This document shows positions 3,081-30,989 of a stretch of DNA of 58,984 nt, piece by piece (position 1 is the stretch's first letter; each line of letters starts with the position of its first letter). A model generated the notes under the pieces. The model was given only the letters and a program-made list of their open reading frames with translations. It was not told where the DNA came from and made no database searches. Where the stretch lies: assembly GCA_903882525.1 (NCBI GenBank), contig CAIRXI010000182.1:1-58984 (forward strand). Direction: 5' to 3'. The DNA comes from an uncultured Pseudomonadota bacterium (GTDB lineage Bacteria > Pseudomonadota > Gammaproteobacteria > Burkholderiales > Methylophilaceae). A program made the translations under genes and the position numbers.

Positions 3081-4604
3081 TTACTTATTGGTTTGCTGCG
3101 CGCGTGCCACTAAAAACTCGGTCAACAAAGGAACCGGACGACCTGTGCCGCCTTTTTCCTTACCTGACTTCCAGGCCGTGCCTGCAATATCCAAATGCGC
3201 CCAGTCATACTTTTTAGCAAAGCGCGATAAGAAACATGCGGCTGTAATACTGCCGCCTGCTCGCCCACCGATATTGGCCATATCAGCGAAATTGCTATCG
3301 AGTAATGGTTGGTATTCCTCCCACATAGGCATATGCCAAGCGCGGTCAAGGGATGCTTCTCCTGCGCTTAATAGCTCTTTGGCTAAATCATCGTTGTTAC
3401 TAAACAAACCAGTCGCATGATGCCCCAGCGCAATCACGCAAGCGCCAGTGAGTGTAGCAATATCAACTACCGCACTTGGTTCAAAGCGCTCAGCATAGGT
3501 AAGAGCATCGCACAAAATCAAACGGCCTTCTGCATCCGTATTTAAAACTTCAATAGTCAGGCCAGACATACTGGTCAGCACATCGCCAGGCCTTACCGCA
3601 CGGCCATCTGGCATATTTTCACAAGTAGGTATAATGCCGATAACATTAAGAGGCAAATCCATTTCAGCGATGGTCTTAAATGTTCCAAGCACGCTGGCGG
3701 CGCCACACATGTCGTACTTCATCTCATCCATCTCGGCACCTGGTTTGATTGAAATACCTCCCGTATCAAAAGTAATGCCTTTTCCTACTAGCACTACGGG
3801 CTTGTCGTTTTTATTGCCCTTAAGGTGTTGTAAAACAATCAGTTTTGGTGGCTCTTCACTGCCTTGCGCTACTGCTAAAAATGAACCCATACCAAGCTTC
3901 TCAAGTGCTGCACGCTCCAGCACTTCTATTTTTAAACCATAGGTTTTACCGAGCAAAATTGCCTGTTCAGCCAAATAAGTCGGTGTACAAACATTAGGGG
4001 GTAAATTTCCCAAATCCTTGGTCAAGCTTACTCCTGCCGACAAGGCTAGACCGTCCGCTAAACCAGCTGCGCCTGCTTGCACATCGGAAGCTTGTGGAAC
4101 GTTGATACTCAGACTTGCAATCCCTTTTTTAGTCCCTGGCTTATCTTCAGACTTTCTTTTAATAGCATTGAATTGATAGTTTGCATCTAATGTCACTTCA
4201 ACTAAGTGAGACACTTTCCAGCGTGTAGCGAACGTTTTAACCGGTAATTCCACCAAAAAGCTACCAACAACGTTGGCGCCTGTATTGGCCAAAGCTTTCA
4301 CTGAAGATCGCACCGCTTTGCAATATTGTTTTTCAGTAAACTCCTCTGCTTTTCCCAATCCTACTAACAGCACACGCTCGCTCTGGATCCCAGGCAAGCT
4401 ATGTAACATTAGTGTCGAGTCTAATTTACCATCCATATCACCACGTTTAAGTATATTGCTAATATATCCGCTAGATGCAGCGTCTATGGATTGCGCCGCG
4501 TCTGATAATTTTCGTGACTCATACACGCCAACAACCACACAATCACAAGCTAGCTTTTCCGGTTTATCGCTTTTTATGCTAAATTCTATGGTACTGGGTT
4601 TCAT
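3081..4604 (-). CDS. pepA: Leucyl aminopeptidase (M17)
   Basis: GKGITFDTGGISIK, MKYDMCGAA, NTDAEGRL, WAHLDIAGT motifs. Confidence 0.97.
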   Translation of the reverse strand: MKPSTIEFSIKSDKPEKLACDCVVVGVYESRKLSDAAQSIDAASSGYISNILKRGDMDGKLDSTLMLHSLPGIQSERVLLVGLGKAEEFTEKQYCKAVRSSVKALANTGANVVGSFLVELPVKTFATRWKVSHLVEVTLDANYQFNAIKRKSEDKPGTKKGIASLSINVPQASDVQAGAAGLADGLALSAGVSLTKDLGNLPPNVCTPTYLAEQAILLGKTYGLKIEVLERAALEKLGMGSFLAVAQGSEEPPKLIVLQHLKGNKNDKPVVLVGKGITFDTGGISIKPGAEMDEMKYDMCGAASVLGTFKTIAEMDLPLNVIGIIPTCENMPDGRAVRPGDVLTSMSGLTIEVLNTDAEGRLILCDALTYAERFEPSAVVDIATLTGACVIALGHHATGLFSNNDDLAKELLSAGEASLDRAWHMPMWEEYQPLLDSNFADMANIGGRAGGSITAACFLSRFAKKYDWAHLDIAGTAWKSGKEKGGTGRPVPLLTEFLVARAQQTNK

Positions 4605-4691
4605 GCTGTATTAACCTTTTCTGTTGTTTAGTAAATTATCTCGTGTTTTACTCGTAATTCATAGTTGTAAATAAATGGTTTAATGCATCGT

Positions 4692-4751
4692 ATGCTTTTT
4701 AGGCGCTCACTCTTACAAGAACTTATCATCACAATTAATTCCTTGACCTAA
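4692..4751 (+). pseudogene. lptF: N-terminal stub of LPS export permease LptF
   Basis: ATG4692..TAA4751 translates MLFRRSLLQELIITINSLT*. The first ~14 residues resemble betaproteobacterial LptF N-termini (M-I/L-F-x-R-S-L-L-x-E-L). It sits exactly in the lptF slot, divergent from pepA and 10 bp before lptG. Confidence 0.72.
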
Positions 4752-4761
4752 CATACTTACC

Positions 4762-5832
4762 ATGAAAATCATTTCACGCTACTTGCTTAAAGAAGTCACT
4801 ATCAATGTGATTCTCATCATGCTCGCGCTCCTTGCCATGTTCTCATTCTTTAATTTAATCCAAGAGCTGGAATCTTTAGGTAAAGGTAACTATGGGCTGA
4901 GCCAGGTCTTGTTATTTGTATTGCTAAGCGCGCCAGGACATATCTATGATGTAATGCCCGTCGCTGTACTAGTAGGCTGCATGTATAGCTTGGCAAAATT
5001 TGCGCGCAATTCAGAGCTTGTCGTATTAAGGGTTAGCGGTGTATCTATGCTTAATATCGCCGTCTTGCTGTTAAAAGTGGGAACTGTGTTTACGCTTCTT
5101 ACATTTTTGATTGGCGAGCTCATCACACCGGTAAGCGAGAAGATGGCACAGCGGGTTCGGATTAAAGCGACCAACTCTGTGATTGCACAAGACTTTAGAT
5201 CTGGTTTATGGGTAAAAGATGGCAGTAGTTTTGTTAATGTTGAGGAAGTGTTACCAGACGCCACTTTACTCAATGTCCATATCTATGAATTTGATCAGAA
5301 GTTTAAGCTACGTATGATTAGTAATGCCAAAAGTGGGCAATTTACAGATGATGACTGGCAACTGAAAAAAGTAAGAAAAACCACATTTGATCAAGACTCG
5401 ATTCATATTACAGAAGTACCTGAAGCGAAGTGGCACTCACTTATTCGGCCAGAGTTAATGAATGTATTGTTGGTGCTACCTGAAAGAATGTCAGCACTTA
5501 ACTTGTATTCTTATATACGTCACTTAAGTGTCAATAAGCAAAAAACTACCCGCTACCAAGTGGCCTTGTGGGGTAAGTTAATTTACCCACTGGCCTGCAT
5601 GGTCATGGTGGTTCTGGCCTTACCGTTTGGTTTTATTCAGCAACGCATGAGCGGAGCCAGCGCCAAAGTATTTGTTGGAATTATGCTTGGTGTCATGTAT
5701 CAAATACTGAATCGGGTATTTGTGCACCTAGGCTTATTAAACGACTGGCCACCTTTATTTAGCGCCACCACACCGACGATTTTATTTTTGCTCGCTGGTC
5801 TCACCATGTTGCATTATGTTGAACGTAGATAA
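4762..5832 (+). CDS. lptG: LPS export ABC transporter permease LptG
   Basis: MKIISRYLLKE.., LGKGNY, RNSELVVLRVSG, GLWVKDG, six-TM YjgP/Q layout; G-type N-terminus. Confidence 0.92.
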   Translation: MKIISRYLLKEVTINVILIMLALLAMFSFFNLIQELESLGKGNYGLSQVLLFVLLSAPGHIYDVMPVAVLVGCMYSLAKFARNSELVVLRVSGVSMLNIAVLLLKVGTVFTLLTFLIGELITPVSEKMAQRVRIKATNSVIAQDFRSGLWVKDGSSFVNVEEVLPDATLLNVHIYEFDQKFKLRMISNAKSGQFTDDDWQLKKVRKTTFDQDSIHITEVPEAKWHSLIRPELMNVLLVLPERMSALNLYSYIRHLSVNKQKTTRYQVALWGKLIYPLACMVMVVLALPFGFIQQRMSGASAKVFVGIMLGVMYQILNRVFVHLGLLNDWPPLFSATTPTILFLLAGLTMLHYVERR

Positions 5833-6275
5833 CAATCGATAATTCTAGAACCGAGTAAACGGTCATGTAAATAGATGCGGTCGCGGTCTACTAGCACCCA
5901 CAAAAAACCCAAACCAAATAGCATTAAACTTAGGCAGGCCAAGCCATATCTAAGCATTGCGATGGCTGGTGTCAGCAACTGCCCATGCTGATCCACTAAC
6001 TTTAAATGCCAGGTTTGCATAGCTAAGGTCTGACCGCTTTTAAGCCAACACCAAACAAAATAGAGGCCGACACTTAGACATAAAAACGACTGCAGAAAAT
6101 AACGCTTTCCGCCTTGTGTGGCATCACCTAGTAAGCCTATAAAGAGCAAAGCCAAGGCAAAACAAAGGGCCATGACGACTAAGCTATCGTAGACAAAACT
6201 AGCCCCGAGTTTGATTAAGCTTGGGGTGGTAAGTGCGCCCTCGGTTGACTCTCGTAATGGTTGCTGATTGTGCAT
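5814..6275 (-). CDS. RDD family membrane protein
   Basis: ASFVYD, GQTLAMQTW, LHDRL motifs; convergent with lptG as commonly seen. Confidence 0.88.
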   Translation of the reverse strand: MHNQQPLRESTEGALTTPSLIKLGASFVYDSLVVMALCFALALLFIGLLGDATQGGKRYFLQSFLCLSVGLYFVWCWLKSGQTLAMQTWHLKLVDQHGQLLTPAIAMLRYGLACLSLMLFGLGFLWVLVDRDRIYLHDRLLGSRIIDCYLRST

Positions 6276-27247: not shown

Positions 27248-28264
27248 ATGTCATCTCAAGTGAACAATCCTCACCTCGCAGGCACTTTGCAACCCGGGTC
27301 AAATACGACATTGGATTTGGCGCGCGACATTCTTCAGCTAGAAGCCAGAGAAATTGACGCCTTAGCCTTGCGCTTAGATGAGCATTTCACAGCTGCTGTG
27401 AGCCTTATATTAAAATGCCGAGGCCGTGTTGTAGTGAGTGGCATGGGGAAATCCGGTCATATCGGTGGGAAAATAGCCTCAACGCTTGCCAGTACAGGTA
27501 CACCTGCTTTTTTCATGCACCCAGCTGAGGCTAGCCATGGTGACTTGGGCATGATTACCGCAGGTGATATTGTGATTGCGTTGTCTAATTCTGGCGAAAG
27601 CGATGAAATTTTAGCCATCGTGCCTCCGCTTAAACGCTTAGGTGCGAGCATTATTGCAATTACTGGCAATGATAATTCCACCTTAGCCCAAGCCGCCGAC
27701 ATCCATTTAAGTGCGCATGTAAGCAAGGAAGCTTGCCCACTCGGCTTAGCACCCACCTCAAGTACCACTGTGGCATTAGCGCTAGGCGATGCGCTAGCTT
27801 TATGTGTATTAGATCAGAGGGAATTTACCGCTGAAGATTTTGCGCGTTCCCATCCTGGCGGCAGCTTAGGACGGCGCCTTCTGGTGCATGTCAGCGACTT
27901 AATGCGAAGCGGTGATAAAATCCCGAAGGTGTTAGCCGACGCGCCTTTAACGCAAGGTTTGCTAGAAATGTCACGTAAGGGATTGGGCTTAACTGCCATT
28001 GTTGATGCAAACGATATGCCGATAGGCATTTTTACTGATGGCGACTTACGCCGCACTTTTGAAAAAAACGTTAACGTGTCAAATGCTCGCATTGCAGATG
28101 TGATGCATCCCAACCCCTACACCATCAATCAAGAGCAATTAGCCATCGTGGCAGTAGAGATTATGGAACAACGCAAAATTAATGCACTGCTGGTGACTAA
28201 TGATGCCGGCACTTTAGTCGGCGCTTTAAATATGCACGATCTTTTATTAGCCAAGGTGGTGTAA
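27248..28264 (+). CDS. kdsD: Arabinose-5-phosphate isomerase (KpsF/GutQ)
   Basis: GMGKSGHIG, ASTGTP, EASHGDLG, EACPLGLAPTSST, SHPGGSLG, CBS pair. Confidence 0.96.
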   Translation: MSSQVNNPHLAGTLQPGSNTTLDLARDILQLEAREIDALALRLDEHFTAAVSLILKCRGRVVVSGMGKSGHIGGKIASTLASTGTPAFFMHPAEASHGDLGMITAGDIVIALSNSGESDEILAIVPPLKRLGASIIAITGNDNSTLAQAADIHLSAHVSKEACPLGLAPTSSTTVALALGDALALCVLDQREFTAEDFARSHPGGSLGRRLLVHVSDLMRSGDKIPKVLADAPLTQGLLEMSRKGLGLTAIVDANDMPIGIFTDGDLRRTFEKNVNVSNARIADVMHPNPYTINQEQLAIVAVEIMEQRKINALLVTNDAGTLVGALNMHDLLLAKVV

Positions 28265-28270
28265 GACGTA

Positions 28271-28831
28271 ATGACAATTTTGAATCTAGATGCTGCATTG
28301 CTAAAGCGCTTTAAAAACATCAAATTACTGGTACTTGATGTAGATGGGGTGATGACAGATGGTGGCCTTACCATAGGCGATGATGGTCAAGAATATAAAA
28401 CTTTTCATACCCATGACGGCCTTGGTATGAAGTTACTCAAAGCCAGCGGCGTAGATTTAGCCATTATTACTGGGCGCACTTCCAATGTGGTTAAGAAGCG
28501 TGCTGAGAGCACTGGTGTCGGCCATTTTTACCAAGGTGCAGAAGATAAATTAGAGGCCTTTAATGACCTAATCAACACCTGTGGACTAAAGGCAGAGCAA
28601 TGTGCTTTTATGGGTGACGATGTAGTGGATTTGCCACCCATGTTGGCCAGCGGCCTAGCCATTGCCGTGCCGGCCTCGGCAGCATTGGTGCTCAAGCATG
28701 CACATTATGTGACTAAAAAAGCGGGTGGTTTTGGCGCAGTCCGCGAAGTGTGTGAGCTAATCATGCAAGCACAAGGCACTTTTGATGACCAAATGCAGCA
28801 GTTCTTAACCCGAGCTCATATTTCAAATTAA
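28271..28831 (+). CDS. kdsC: KDO 8-phosphate phosphatase
   Basis: LDVDGVMTDG, IITGR, MGDDVVD, GAVREVCE. Confidence 0.95.
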   Translation: MTILNLDAALLKRFKNIKLLVLDVDGVMTDGGLTIGDDGQEYKTFHTHDGLGMKLLKASGVDLAIITGRTSNVVKKRAESTGVGHFYQGAEDKLEAFNDLINTCGLKAEQCAFMGDDVVDLPPMLASGLAIAVPASAALVLKHAHYVTKKAGGFGAVREVCELIMQAQGTFDDQMQQFLTRAHISN

Positions 28832-28873
28832 ATTGACCATGGCTACAGTGATATCTAAACTAAAAGTTGCAGT

Positions 28874-29551
28874 ATGAAAACGACCGTGCGCCCAGCACTA
28901 TTACTTCCATTATTACTGCTATCCATGCTTGCGCTATTAACCTATTGGATTAATAAAACAGTCCAGCCATCTGCGCCTAAGATTGATGGTAGCAGTCGCC
29001 ATGATCCTGACTATATTATGAGTAACTTTGTGACTAAGCAAACTGACGTCAATGGTAATCTGCACTTTCAATTGGCAGCAGTTGAAATGCGCCATTTTCC
29101 AGATGACGATAGTACCTATTTGCAACGTCCTCGCTACACCCAATTTACGATAGGTAAAGCACCCACTCAAGTAGAGTCTCTGCGTGGCATAGTGTCGGCC
29201 GATGGTGAAAAAGTGGAGCTATTCGGTAATGTAAAAATCACGCGCCCAGCTTTTTCCGGTAAGAGCGAGAGCACACTTGACACTGATCATCTGACCATTT
29301 TTCCTAACAAAGACATAGTGCGTACCGAAAGCCCGGTCGTCATTCGACAGGCACCTAAGACTGTTGTTTATGGTACGGGTATGCTTTATGAAAAGAAATT
29401 AGGCACGCTAATTTTGTTTCATAAAGTACGCGCGCATTATGAAAAATCTTCGGCGAGTAAGGCAGCTTCACAGCCTAGCTCGGCTAAAGTTATCACACCC
29501 CATATTCCAACTAAAACTAACAACACGCGCACTCGGAGACGCTATGAGTAA
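28874..29551 (+). CDS. lptC: LPS export protein LptC
   Basis: Single N-terminal TM helix, RHDPDY, HFPDDD; position after kdsC. Confidence 0.9.
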   Translation: MKTTVRPALLLPLLLLSMLALLTYWINKTVQPSAPKIDGSSRHDPDYIMSNFVTKQTDVNGNLHFQLAAVEMRHFPDDDSTYLQRPRYTQFTIGKAPTQVESLRGIVSADGEKVELFGNVKITRPAFSGKSESTLDTDHLTIFPNKDIVRTESPVVIRQAPKTVVYGTGMLYEKKLGTLILFHKVRAHYEKSSASKAASQPSSAKVITPHIPTKTNNTRTRRRYE

Positions 29552-30215
29552 ATATTTAAACACAACATTGCTAAAACTAAGCGCAAGCTTATTGATCTTA
29601 GCCTTATCAGAATACTCTGGTCGCGTATACGCTGAGGCGGCTGATCGTGACAAACCTATTGATTTAGAGGCAGACTCAGTCAAAGTTGATGACGCTAAAC
29701 ATACCAGCACCTATTTCGGCAACGTGATTTTAACTAAAGGCACAATCATCATTCACGCCGATAAGCTCATCGTGCGCGAGGATCAAGAAGGTTTTCAGCA
29801 CAGCAGCTCTTTTGGTAATCCGACCACATTTAAGCAAAAACGTGAAGGCAAAAACGAATACATTGAAGGAAGCTCACAACGCATAGAATACGATGCCCGT
29901 ATGGACAAAGTGCAGCTTTACACCAAAGCCTGGGTCAAGCGCGGTGAGGATATTGTGCATGGGGACTACATCATGTATGACGCCAATGCGGAGTATGCAG
30001 AAGTCGTTGGTGGTGGCCCAAAGTCAGCAACCGCTGGCGTTCCAAGTGGTCGGGTACGTGCGATTATTCAACCCAAAAATAAACAAGCACCGGATGCCGG
30101 TGCTGATAGTACAAAAATTAACAATAATGCCAAACCTGCGCCTAACAACAATGGTGCCACGCTTAAAGATTCTCGCTCTAGCCAAAGCTTAAATGTAAGT
30201 GGCGAGGGAAAGTAA
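29544..30215 (+). CDS. lptA: LPS transport periplasmic protein LptA
   Basis: AEAADRDKPIDLEAD, GNVILTKGT, GRVRAIIQP; ATG29544 overlaps the end of lptC. Confidence 0.92.
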   Translation: MSKYLNTTLLKLSASLLILALSEYSGRVYAEAADRDKPIDLEADSVKVDDAKHTSTYFGNVILTKGTIIIHADKLIVREDQEGFQHSSSFGNPTTFKQKREGKNEYIEGSSQRIEYDARMDKVQLYTKAWVKRGEDIVHGDYIMYDANAEYAEVVGGGPKSATAGVPSGRVRAIIQPKNKQAPDAGADSTKINNNAKPAPNNNGATLKDSRSSQSLNVSGEGK

Positions 30216-30266
30216 TGACAATGTCTTGCTACTTATCAACTACAGACTAAATAAGAACCGACCATC

Positions 30267-30989
30267 ATGAGCGAACTCATTGTAGAGAATTTACGAAAGT
30301 CATATAAAGCCCGTACGGTGGTGCAAGATATTTCCTTGCGCTTAAAAAGCGGTGAGGTAGTTGGTTTGCTTGGCCCAAATGGCGCAGGCAAGACCACAAG
30401 TTTTTATATGATGGTAGGGTTGGTACCCTTGGATGCTGGCAGCATTTTTCTTGACGGCAAAGACTTAAGTCATATGCCCATTCACATGCGCGCGCGTATG
30501 GGACTATCTTACCTTCCGCAAGAGCCTTCTATCTTTCGCAAACTCACAGTTGCTGAAAATATTATGGCAGTGCTAGAGCTTCAAGACATGTCAGAAAAAG
30601 AGATGGATGAGAAGCTGGAGTCCCTTCTAGAGGAACTCCATATCACCCATATTCGTGACAATCCAGCGGTCAGTTTGTCGGGAGGTGAACGACGTCGCGT
30701 AGAAATCGCCCGTTGCCTAGCATCAGACCCCAGTTTCATTTTGCTCGATGAGCCATTTGCTGGCATAGACCCAATTGCAGTCATTGACATACAAAAAATT
30801 ATTCGTTTTTTAACTGCCCGCAATATCGGCGTTCTCATTACTGATCACAATGTGCGCGAGACTTTAGGTATTTGCGACCGCGCTTACATTGTTAATCAAG
30901 GTCATGTATTTGCGTCCGGCCTGCCTAGTGAAATTGTCAATAACGAAAGTGTACGCGAAGTGTATTTGGGGAAAAATTTCCGCCTATGA
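30267..30989 (+). CDS. lptB: LPS export ABC transporter ATPase
   Basis: [46 protein letters not shown]. Confidence 0.97.

What the first reader, a model, noticed from the sequence alone, without database searches (positions are those of the whole stretch)
4692..5832. lptF reduced to a 19-codon stub while lptG and lptCAB are intact: possible LptF-less (LptB2G2?) LPS extractor
Seen: only 157 bp separate pepA and lptG. That gap holds an ORF, MLFRRSLLQELIITINSLT* (4692-4751), too short for the ORF track, which begins like LptF and then ends. lptG is full length, and kdsD-kdsC-lptC-lptA-lptB (27248-30989) are intact. Established: the usual order is pepA<>lptF-lptG; LptF and LptG are paralogous halves of the LptB2FG transporter and both are essential in E. 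coli. Inference: about 1 kb of lptF has been deleted here. Either lptF survives elsewhere (relocated or replaced), or LptG works as a homodimer, or the gap is an assembly artefact. A natural LptF-less transporter in a lineage whose relatives have both genes would be notable.
Basis: partly seen in the sequence, partly recalled or inferred. Interest (0 to 1): 0.78.

Follow-up and report, generated by a model that had tools for sequence, protein, structure and literature searches.

The report
Borrowed lptF replaces the deleted copy
This freshwater bacterium has deleted all but a stub of the gene for one half of its outer-membrane lipid exporter, but it carries an intact second copy elsewhere, next to a sugar-transferase gene with which it was likely swapped between related species, so the exporter is most likely ordinary and the interest lies in a gene replacement caught at several stages.

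Summary
The stub is real; the LptF-less (LptB2G2) idea is refuted. The same genome has a full-length lptF on contig C11 (370 aa; TIGR04407 372.9 bits, cut-off 230). Contigs from runs of two other studies bridge the junction. Relatives keep longer remnants of the native gene (218 and 292 bp).

The surviving copy (LptF2) is not the native orthologue (AU p=0.0095). It lies tail-to-tail with an ArnT-like GT-C glycosyltransferase in 7 of 93 genus genomes, in five different flanking contexts. Four of these also keep native pepA-lptF-lptG; three have lost it. The two genes have the lowest synonymous divergence of 64 and of 49 orthologues compared, which points to transfer between lineages.

Best reading: xenologous displacement of lptF by a mobile two-gene cassette, giving a likely canonical LptB2FGC. 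Specialisation of LptF2 for glycosylated LPS is possible (about 0.2) but no sequence change supports it. No earlier scan note described this. Interest 0.3.

The parts
3081..4604 (-). pepA, leucyl aminopeptidase, divergent from the lptF stub
   Evidence: NF002074 787.9 bits, cut-off 415
4605..4691 (.). Native pepA/lptF intergenic region, kept intact; presumed promoter region for stub-lptG (inferred)
   Evidence: Same conserved block as upstream of intact native lptF genes in relatives; no promoter consensus above chance
4692..4751 (+). 19-codon remnant ORF: first 14 codons of the native lptF, then 5 codons from the old lptF-lptG spacer, stop TAA
   Evidence: Sequence; 36-39 of 42 nt identical to lptF starts; relatives G010, G012, L171, L172 keep a 218-bp version with both ends of the gene
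4726..4734 (+). Junction of the last 148-bp deletion; single copy of a 9-bp word that occurs twice, 148 bp apart, in the longer remnant of L171/L172
   Evidence: Read by eye; the repeat finder did not list it; junction bridged by contigs of X6 and X9
4762..5832 (+). lptG, full length (356 aa); Asn31 at the position of K34 (enterobacteria) / D31 (Burkholderia)
   Evidence: TIGR04408 397 bits, cut-off 240; alignment to solved LptG chains; residue survey
27248..28831 (+). kdsD-like and kdsC-like genes
   Evidence: TIGR00393 and TIGR01670 over cut-off
28874..30989 (+). lptC-lptA-lptB, intact. The partner lptF (LptF2) lies outside the window at G000:C11:4932-6044 (+), tail-to-tail with an ArnT-like gene at C11:6070-7524 (-)
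   Evidence: TIGR04409 164 vs 38, TIGR03002 150 vs 71.7, TIGR04406 394 vs 240; C11 genes:

Best explanation
The stub is what remains of the native lptF after stepwise deletion, and a full-length second lptF (LptF2) on contig C11, likely acquired from a related species together with an ArnT-like glycosyltransferase gene, is predicted to pair with the window's LptG, LptB and LptC in an ordinary LptB2FGC exporter. Order of events: (1) shown in sequence, origin inferred: LptF2 was copied from a native pepA<>lptF locus within the genus, and a decayed pepA start is still readable upstream; (2) shown: it sits tail-to-tail with an ArnT-like GT-C gene, and the pair occupies different chromosomal sites in different lineages; (3) inferred: the pair moved horizontally between lineages; (4) shown: four genomes carry both lptF copies; (5) shown: in this lineage the native gene has eroded (292-bp, 218-bp and 70-bp remnants); (6) inferred, weak: the stub is kept open as a translated leader for lptG. 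The GT-C likely adds a sugar to LPS from an undecaprenyl-phosphate donor made by the unlinked GtrA/GtrB-like pair on C116 (inferred; acceptor untested).
For: Full-length LptF on C11, TIGR04407 372.9 vs cut-off 230, no stops; only two PF03739 matches over the cut-off in the genome, one F and one G. C11 belongs to this organism: the same block lies on an 89-kb contig of G010 among core genes, and its four genes have ordinary divergence to G010 (pS 0.195-0.261, median of 61 orthologues 0.234); runs X6 and X9 hold both loci. The remnant is of the native type: the 3' part of the G010 remnant scores 54-71 against the top 14 native lptF ends, 28.5 against LptF2, shuffled maximum 52.5 in 200 shuffles. 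LptF2 is 85/85/81% identical to second copies in G098/G099/G100 but 67-68% to their native copies; LptF2 clade 100/99, and a tree joining it to the sister-lineage natives is rejected (p-AU 0.0095; 28 of 92 genus rows used). LptF2 and the ArnT-like gene have the two lowest pS of 64 orthologues against G098 (0.459, 0.468; median 0.74; next 0.552) and of 49 against G099 (0.474, 0.444; median 0.742; next 0.628). Shared DNA ends 53-137 bp upstream of the ArnT-like gene and 86-188 bp upstream of lptF2 in the 12 pairwise comparisons among G000/G010/G012/G098/G099/G100 that have different flanks. LptF2 is under purifying selection in two-copy genomes (dN/dS 0.11-0.13).
Against: G000 is a 200-contig bin, 88% complete, so linkage of C11 and C182 rests on relatives and co-occurrence, not one contig. 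The LptF2 subtree ((G000,G010),(G100,(G098,G099))) mirrors the LptG+PepA tree, as vertical descent would. The orthologue samples (64, 49, 61 genes) come from stretches I chose, not whole genomes. The decayed pepA start is clear in translation in 6 of 8 relocated copies, but its nucleotide scores are at or barely above the shuffled maximum. No assembly of LptF2 with LptG, and no expression, was shown: RNA run X16 holds related contigs only and X15 covers 2 of 30 bins. No transposase, integrase or terminal repeat was noticed at the cassette ends (not searched with family profiles). The direction of transfer is not determined.
Confidence: 0.85

Rival explanations
1. LptF-less exporter: LptG works as a homodimer (LptB2G2), and the C11 lptF is contamination or non-functional.
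For: No lptF next to lptG; lptF lies on a different, 7.9-kb contig of a fragmented bin.
Against: C11 LptF is intact and over the cut-off; G010, G012 and G021 each pair the same loss with a full lptF elsewhere, 4 of 4 such genomes; C11 genes diverge from G010 like core genes; 90 of 93 genus genomes have LptF over the cut-off; the window protein scores as LptG (397) and far below the LptF cut-off (108 vs 230).
Confidence: 0.01
2. The gap is an assembly artefact and the real chromosome has pepA-lptF-lptG.
For: The source is a metagenome-type bin; X9 shows loose ends at 4687 and 4723, which read as lptF starts of other organisms.
Against: Contigs from two other studies bridge the junction with no indel or joint; L170 has the same gap; related genomes show longer remnants at the same site.
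Confidence: 0.01
3. Old duplication with differential loss: LptF2 arose once in the ancestor of this sub-clade, was inherited vertically and moved by rearrangement, with no transfer between lineages.
For: LptF2 subtree matches the LptG+PepA topology; the relocated lptF of G021 is its sister (99/97).
Against: Synonymous divergence of both cassette genes across the G000-G098/G099 split is the lowest of all orthologues sampled, yet ordinary within G000-G010; LptF2 identity of 85.4% to G098 exceeds the maximum (84.1%) of 579 native pairs at that distance (pairs not independent); it needs loss in G095 and G062, both 99% complete, and four moves of the same two genes.
Confidence: 0.1
4. LptF2 is a substrate-specialised subunit: it is needed to extract LPS (or another glycolipid) modified by the linked ArnT-like enzyme, so the two genes are co-selected, and the modified LPS became the only form in the lineage that lost native lptF. 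This adds to the best explanation rather than replacing it.
For: The pair stays together in 7 of 7 genomes across five contexts; the linked ArnT-like proteins form their own clade including G022 (0.99); second lptF copies are otherwise rare (6 of 311 family genomes with two matches, 4 of them this cassette; 1 of 401 in the order sample); in G000 the gtrA-gtrB cluster has lost its own GT-C, leaving the linked one. Precedent for coupling of lipid A modification and export: Burkholderia LptG D31H (PMC5548808, PMC4462625, passages).
Against: The genes are convergent, not an operon; 8 of 8 loci of the sister ArnT-like class have no lptF beside them; G099's linked ArnT-like gene has a premature stop at codon 423 of 484 while its LptF2 is intact; G021's sister lptF has no ArnT-like neighbour; none of the 18 LptF2-specific substitutions changes a charge in the first transmembrane helix, and the K40-to-N change is shared with sister natives; dN/dS is higher than for natives (0.11-0.13 vs 0.04-0.055), which fits relaxation as well.
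Confidence: 0.22

Closest known systems
Canonical LptB2FG(C) LPS extractor (solved: 5x5y, 5l75, 6mhu, 6mit, 6mjp, 8frl)
   Same: One LptF, one LptG, LptB, LptC, LptA over family cut-offs and an LptD match in the genome; LptF2 aligns over its whole length to solved LptF chains (E 7e-45).
   Different: lptF and lptG are unlinked; the LptF is a non-orthologous second copy; a remnant marks the old site. LptE was not found in this 88%-complete bin.
Xenologous gene displacement (concept recalled, not from a call)
   Same: Resident orthologue lost, replaced by a homologue with a discordant history; two-copy intermediates exist.
   Different: The displaced gene is one half of an essential heterodimer, the donor lies within the genus, and the incoming copy travels with a glycosyltransferase.
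Caulobacter crescentus LptF2/LptG2/LptC2 for sphingolipid transport (bioRxiv 10.64898/2026.04.12.717747; abstract and outline seen)
   Same: Paralogous Lpt membrane subunits encoded beside lipid-pathway genes and sharing LptB.
   Different: There a full F2/G2/C2 set serves another lipid; here only LptF is duplicated and it must also serve as the sole LptF in four genomes.
Burkholderia cenocepacia ArnT / LptG D31 coupling (PMC5548808, PMC4462625; passages seen)
   Same: An ArnT-family enzyme and an Lpt membrane subunit; LptG position 31 differs in this clade (N in 21 of 100 rows).
   Different: The enzyme here is far below the ArnT cut-off (146 vs 567; 0 of 93 genus genomes pass), selectivity there lies in LptG, and no coupling is shown here.
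GtrABC-type three-component glycosylation systems (definition recalled; search listing)
   Same: GtrA-like (PF04138), GT2 GtrB-like and GT-C genes all present; clustered with lptF2 in G022.
   Different: In G000 the GT-C is unlinked from gtrAB and linked to lptF2; donor sugar and acceptor unknown.

Membership tests
LptF (C11 protein) | Scores over the LptF equivalog cut-off and below the LptG one | tested here: met
   TIGR04407 372.9 vs 230; TIGR04408 77.3 vs 240
LptF (C11 protein) | Full-length, uninterrupted frame aligning to solved LptF chains | tested here: met
   370 aa, no stops; residues 2-352 align to PDB LptF chains
LptF (C11 protein) | Coupling-helix Glu84 and the Arg equivalent to enterobacterial R212 kept (their roles are recalled) | tested here: met
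   E84 and R211 invariant in 15 aligned rows; mapping
LptF (C11 protein) | Forms a heterodimer with LptG and extracts LPS | not tested
   Needs biochemistry; inferred from family membership
LptF-less LptG homodimer | Genome encodes no LptF | tested here: not met
Xenologous gene displacement | Resident orthologue inactivated | tested here: met
   Remnants of native type in G000, G010, G012, L170-172, L215/217/218
Xenologous gene displacement | Replacement has a history discordant with the host | tested here: met
   p-AU 0.0095; lowest pS of 64 and 49 orthologues; subtree topology is congruent, which weakens it
Xenologous gene displacement | Donor and direction identified | tested here: inconclusive
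   Unrooted trees; backbone unresolved
ArnT (lipid A Ara4N transferase) | Score over the ArnT equivalog cut-off | tested here: not met
   NF009784 145.9 vs 567; 0 of 93 genus genomes pass
ArnT (lipid A Ara4N transferase) | Amino-sugar donor pathway present | tested here: inconclusive
   YdjC-type deacetylase found in 0 of 5 genomes, 86-95% complete; ArnA/B/D not searched
GT-C (PMT/ArnT-like) glycosyltransferase | PMT-family membrane domain; similarity to a solved GT-C | tested here: met
   PF02366 69.1 vs 22.7, PF13231 48.3 vs 26.1; 5ezm E 3.8e-23
GtrABC three-component glycosylation | GtrA-like flippase, GT2 and GT-C all encoded | tested here: met
   G000 C116 gtrA and gtrB-like plus the C11 GT-C; clustered in G022
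GtrABC three-component glycosylation | Acceptor glycan and donor sugar known | not testable with these tools
   Needs lipid analysis
Caulobacter-type LptF2/G2/C2 alternative-lipid exporter | Second LptG accompanies the second LptF | tested here: not met
   One LptG in G000; G022, G098, G099, G100 show 3 TIGR04407 matches, two of them LptF; second LptC not searched

The most novel reading that the evidence does not exclude
lptF2 and the ArnT-like gene form a mobile 'modify-and-export' cassette: the GT-C decorates LPS and a dedicated LptF subunit swaps into the host's LptB2FG to export the decorated form, so two-copy genomes run two alternative extractors and this lineage has become dependent on the imported one.
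Probability: 0.22. Interest if true: 0.62.

Novelty: new variant of a known kind. Interest (0 to 1): 0.3.

Why it matters
It removes a false lead: there is no LptF-less transporter here, and a missing lptF beside lptG should always be checked genome-wide. What remains is a well-sampled natural series (native only, both copies, second copy only, with three remnant sizes) for replacement of one half of an essential heterodimer by a 67-68%-identical homologue. That shows, by inference, how tolerant the LptF-LptG interface is. If LptF2 is tuned to modified LPS, the native/LptF2 pairs from one genome would be a ready comparison for asking whether LptF, and not only LptG, selects substrate.

Tried and rejected
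1) LptB2G2 model: not folded, because a full lptF was found at the first search. 2) Physical complex of LptF2 with the ArnT-like protein: complex prediction gave no answer (score 0.00, controls not folded); not used as evidence either way. 3) K40-to-N at the end of LptF helix 1 looked like an adaptation but is shared by sister natives. 4) A change near R212 was a one-residue offset; R211 is kept. 5) LptG N31 as co-adaptation: it marks one clade (21 of 100 rows), including genomes without LptF2, and G022 has LptF2 with D31, so there is no independent support. 6) True ArnT in the genus: 0 of 93 over the cut-off. 7) Composition as a transfer signal: GC3 of lptF2 (0.396) and the ArnT-like gene (0.353) lies within the range of 753 ORFs (36th and 11th percentile). 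8) Other two-copy genomes: G023's two lptF are both pepA-linked; G327's second is a truncated lptF-lptG pair on a 1.4-kb contig; one of G426's two loci was read and is pepA-lptF-lptG, the other was not seen. 9) Expression: RNA contigs cannot show it; X15 covered 2 of 30 bins, X16 22 of 30 with related sequence. 10) The repeat finder did not list the 9-bp junction repeat, and the promoter scan found 1 site against 0.8 expected. 11) The 94-row careful tree did not finish; one search is the quick tree and the tests used 28 rows. 12) Literature searches listed no paper on a second lptF linked to an ArnT-like gene or on Methylophilaceae lptF; most subscription papers and all supplements were not seen.

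Full report
1. Observation. The window has pepA (3081-4604, minus) and lptG (4762-5832, plus) 157 bp apart, with a 19-codon ORF at 4692-4751 that starts like LptF. lptC, lptA and lptB at 28874-30989 pass their family cut-offs. The junction is real. Of 4 runs laid, a contig of X6 spans the whole 2.6-kb stretch with 7 differences and no gap, and a contig of X9 spans 4450-4769. These come from two studies not marked as a possible source. X4 also bridges it but may be the source; X13 does not bridge it. Record titles of related loci name Methylophilaceae and Methylotenera sp., and the runs are freshwater metagenomes.

2. The homodimer idea fails. The genome (1.57 Mb, 200 contigs, 88% complete) has two PF03739 matches over the cut-off: the window's lptG and a gene on contig C11 at 4932-6044. 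The C11 protein is 370 aa and scores 372.9 on TIGR04407 (cut-off 230) and 77 on the LptG model. It keeps E84 and the residue equivalent to R212 (their roles are recalled). C11 is not a stray contig. The same block lies on an 89-kb contig of G010 among core genes, its four genes diverge from G010 like the median of 61 orthologues (pS 0.195-0.261 vs 0.234), and X6 and X9 hold both loci. LptD is present; LptE was not found in the incomplete bin.

3. The stub is the native gene, eroded in steps. G010, G012, L171 and L172 (LptG 90-95% identical) keep 218 bp with the start and the end of lptF joined in frame. The 3' part scores 54-71 against the best 14 native lptF ends and 28.5 against the C11 copy; the best of 200 shuffles reached 52.5. 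G000 and L170 lost a further 148 bp between two copies of a 9-bp word (read by eye; not listed). L215, L217 and L218 (LptG 86-87%, same LptG clade, support 1.0) keep a different 292-bp remnant covering LptF residues 1-102 at 36-44% identity; their lptF elsewhere could not be checked. Of 80 metagenome lptG loci, 7 show a remnant, 69 an adjacent lptF and 4 are too short to tell.

4. The survivor is a second copy. In 93 genus genomes, 90 have LptF over the cut-off. I read 92 full-length genus lptF loci (fragments in G049, G089, G090 not read, G004 read but partial, no match in G086 and G096). 84 are native-type, one (G021) is relocated alone, and 7 lie tail-to-tail with an ArnT-like gene. G022, G098, G099 and G100 carry this copy as well as native pepA-lptF(-lptG); G000, G010 and G012 carry it alone. 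The G000 protein is 85, 85 and 81% identical to the second copies of G098, G099 and G100 and 67-68% to their natives. In a 28-row tree the five LptF2 rows form a clade (100/99) with G021 as sister (99/97); G022's copy is a long unplaced branch. Holding LptF2 with the sister lineage's natives is rejected (p-AU 0.0095). About 125 bp upstream of lptF2, on the other strand, a decayed pepA start is readable in 6 of 8 relocated copies, so the copy came from a native pepA-lptF locus; the nucleotide scores alone are near the shuffled maximum. Two LptF matches are rare otherwise: 6 of 311 family genomes and 1 of 401 in an order-wide sample.

5. The pair moved as a unit. Flanks differ in G022, G000/G010/G012, G098, G099 and G100, and shared DNA ends within about 140 bp and 190 bp of the two start codons. 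The two genes have the lowest synonymous divergence of 64 orthologues against G098 and of 49 against G099 (0.44-0.47 vs medians 0.74), but ordinary values against G010. That pattern fits transfer after the lineages split. Against it, the LptF2 subtree mirrors the LptG+PepA tree, base composition is unremarkable, no mobility gene was noticed, and direction is unresolved.

6. The partner gene. It is a 484-aa GT-C of the PMT/ArnT type (PF02366 69 bits; 5ezm E 3.8e-23), far below the ArnT cut-off. In G022 it ends a gtrA-gtrB-GT-C cluster facing lptF2. A sister class (61-65%) lies behind gtrA-gtrB or gtrB in 8 loci, none with lptF. G000 keeps gtrA-gtrB on C116 in the same neighbourhood but without that GT-C; an ORF that I take from recall for an RlmF-like methyltransferase follows instead. 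A YdjC-type deacetylase was found in 0 of 5 genomes, so a neutral sugar is the likelier cargo (inference).

7. Mechanism. Most likely LptF2 assembles with LptG, LptB and LptC into an ordinary extractor (inferred from family membership and from being the only LptF). Redundancy after the cassette arrived let the native gene decay. All four remnant types (G000, G010-type, L215-type, G021) keep a frame open from the old start position to 10-47 bp before lptG, within or near the native spacing of 1-39 bp, while the protein sequence drifts (pN/pS about 0.66 vs 0.04 for lptG between L215 and L217). Neutral decay would leave the longest one open with probability 0.10-0.17, so a role as translated leader for lptG is suggestive only. 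Specialisation of LptF2 for glycosylated LPS has a precedent in Burkholderia, where LptG D31H permits export of unmodified LPS (PMC5548808 and PMC4462625, passages read), and in Caulobacter LptF2/G2/C2 (bioRxiv 10.64898/2026.04.12.717747, abstract read). But no LptF2-specific charge change lies in helix 1, G099's linked GT-C has a premature stop, and G021's copy has no GT-C beside it. I put it at 0.22.

8. Comparison and novelty. It works like canonical LptB2FGC and passes the LptF tests. It is not an LptF-less system, not a true ArnT pathway, and not a Caulobacter-type second exporter. Unlinked lptF and lptG are not unusual: G031 and G035 in other families have lptG away from pepA-lptF, and PMC8871954 (passages read) reports lpt genes unclustered outside Proteobacteria in its 85 genomes. 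Six literature searches (listings only, apart from the four papers named) showed no report of an lptF/ArnT-like cassette; subscription papers and supplements were not seen. Earlier scan notes held nothing on it.

9. Verdict. Observation confirmed; headline interpretation refuted; a new variant of a known kind (xenologous displacement by a two-gene cassette), confidence 0.85, interest 0.3.

Noticed in passing
window 4852-4854 (LptG residue 31): LptG has Asn at the position of K34 (enterobacteria) / D31 (Burkholderia); 21 of 100 aligned LptG rows have N, all in one clade, and 79 have D although no genus genome has a true ArnT.
   Followed up: partly
window 4692-4761; L034, L305, L171, L172, L215, L217, L218, L036: Every lptF remnant keeps an open frame ending 10-47 bp before lptG, and no Shine-Dalgarno-like run is evident before the lptG start; possible translational coupling.
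   Followed up: partly
G000:C116:17938-20244: gtrA-gtrB-like pair lacks the GT-C gene that follows it in sister genomes; a 339-aa ORF resembling an rRNA methyltransferase (label recalled, not scanned) sits there instead.
   Followed up: partly
L161:740-2194 (= G099:C81): The lptF2-linked ArnT-like gene has a premature stop at codon 423 of 484.
   Followed up: partly
L036 and L037/L309 (G021): A further loss of native lptF: 69-bp remnant at pepA-lptG, and a relocated lptF beside a response regulator and pilus/secretion-type genes (labels recalled), with no ArnT-like neighbour.
   Followed up: yes
L043/L044 (G031), L038/L039 (G035): The mirror arrangement in other families: lptF stays at pepA and lptG lies elsewhere.
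   Followed up: no
L124/L308 (G074): lptF-lptG intact but without pepA upstream.
   Followed up: partly
L070 (G082), L115 (G085): pepA appears as two ORFs, possibly a frameshift or assembly error.
   Followed up: no
G331:C116, G332:C6, G333:C91: LptF matches in three genomes of genus g55 each include one stop inside the aligned range; may be only the natural C-terminal stop.
   Followed up: no
G000:C11:18-3768 (L033): OprB-family porin, a 125-aa unknown protein and an AcpA-type acid phosphatase lie upstream of lptF2 in G000, G010 and G012.
   Followed up: no
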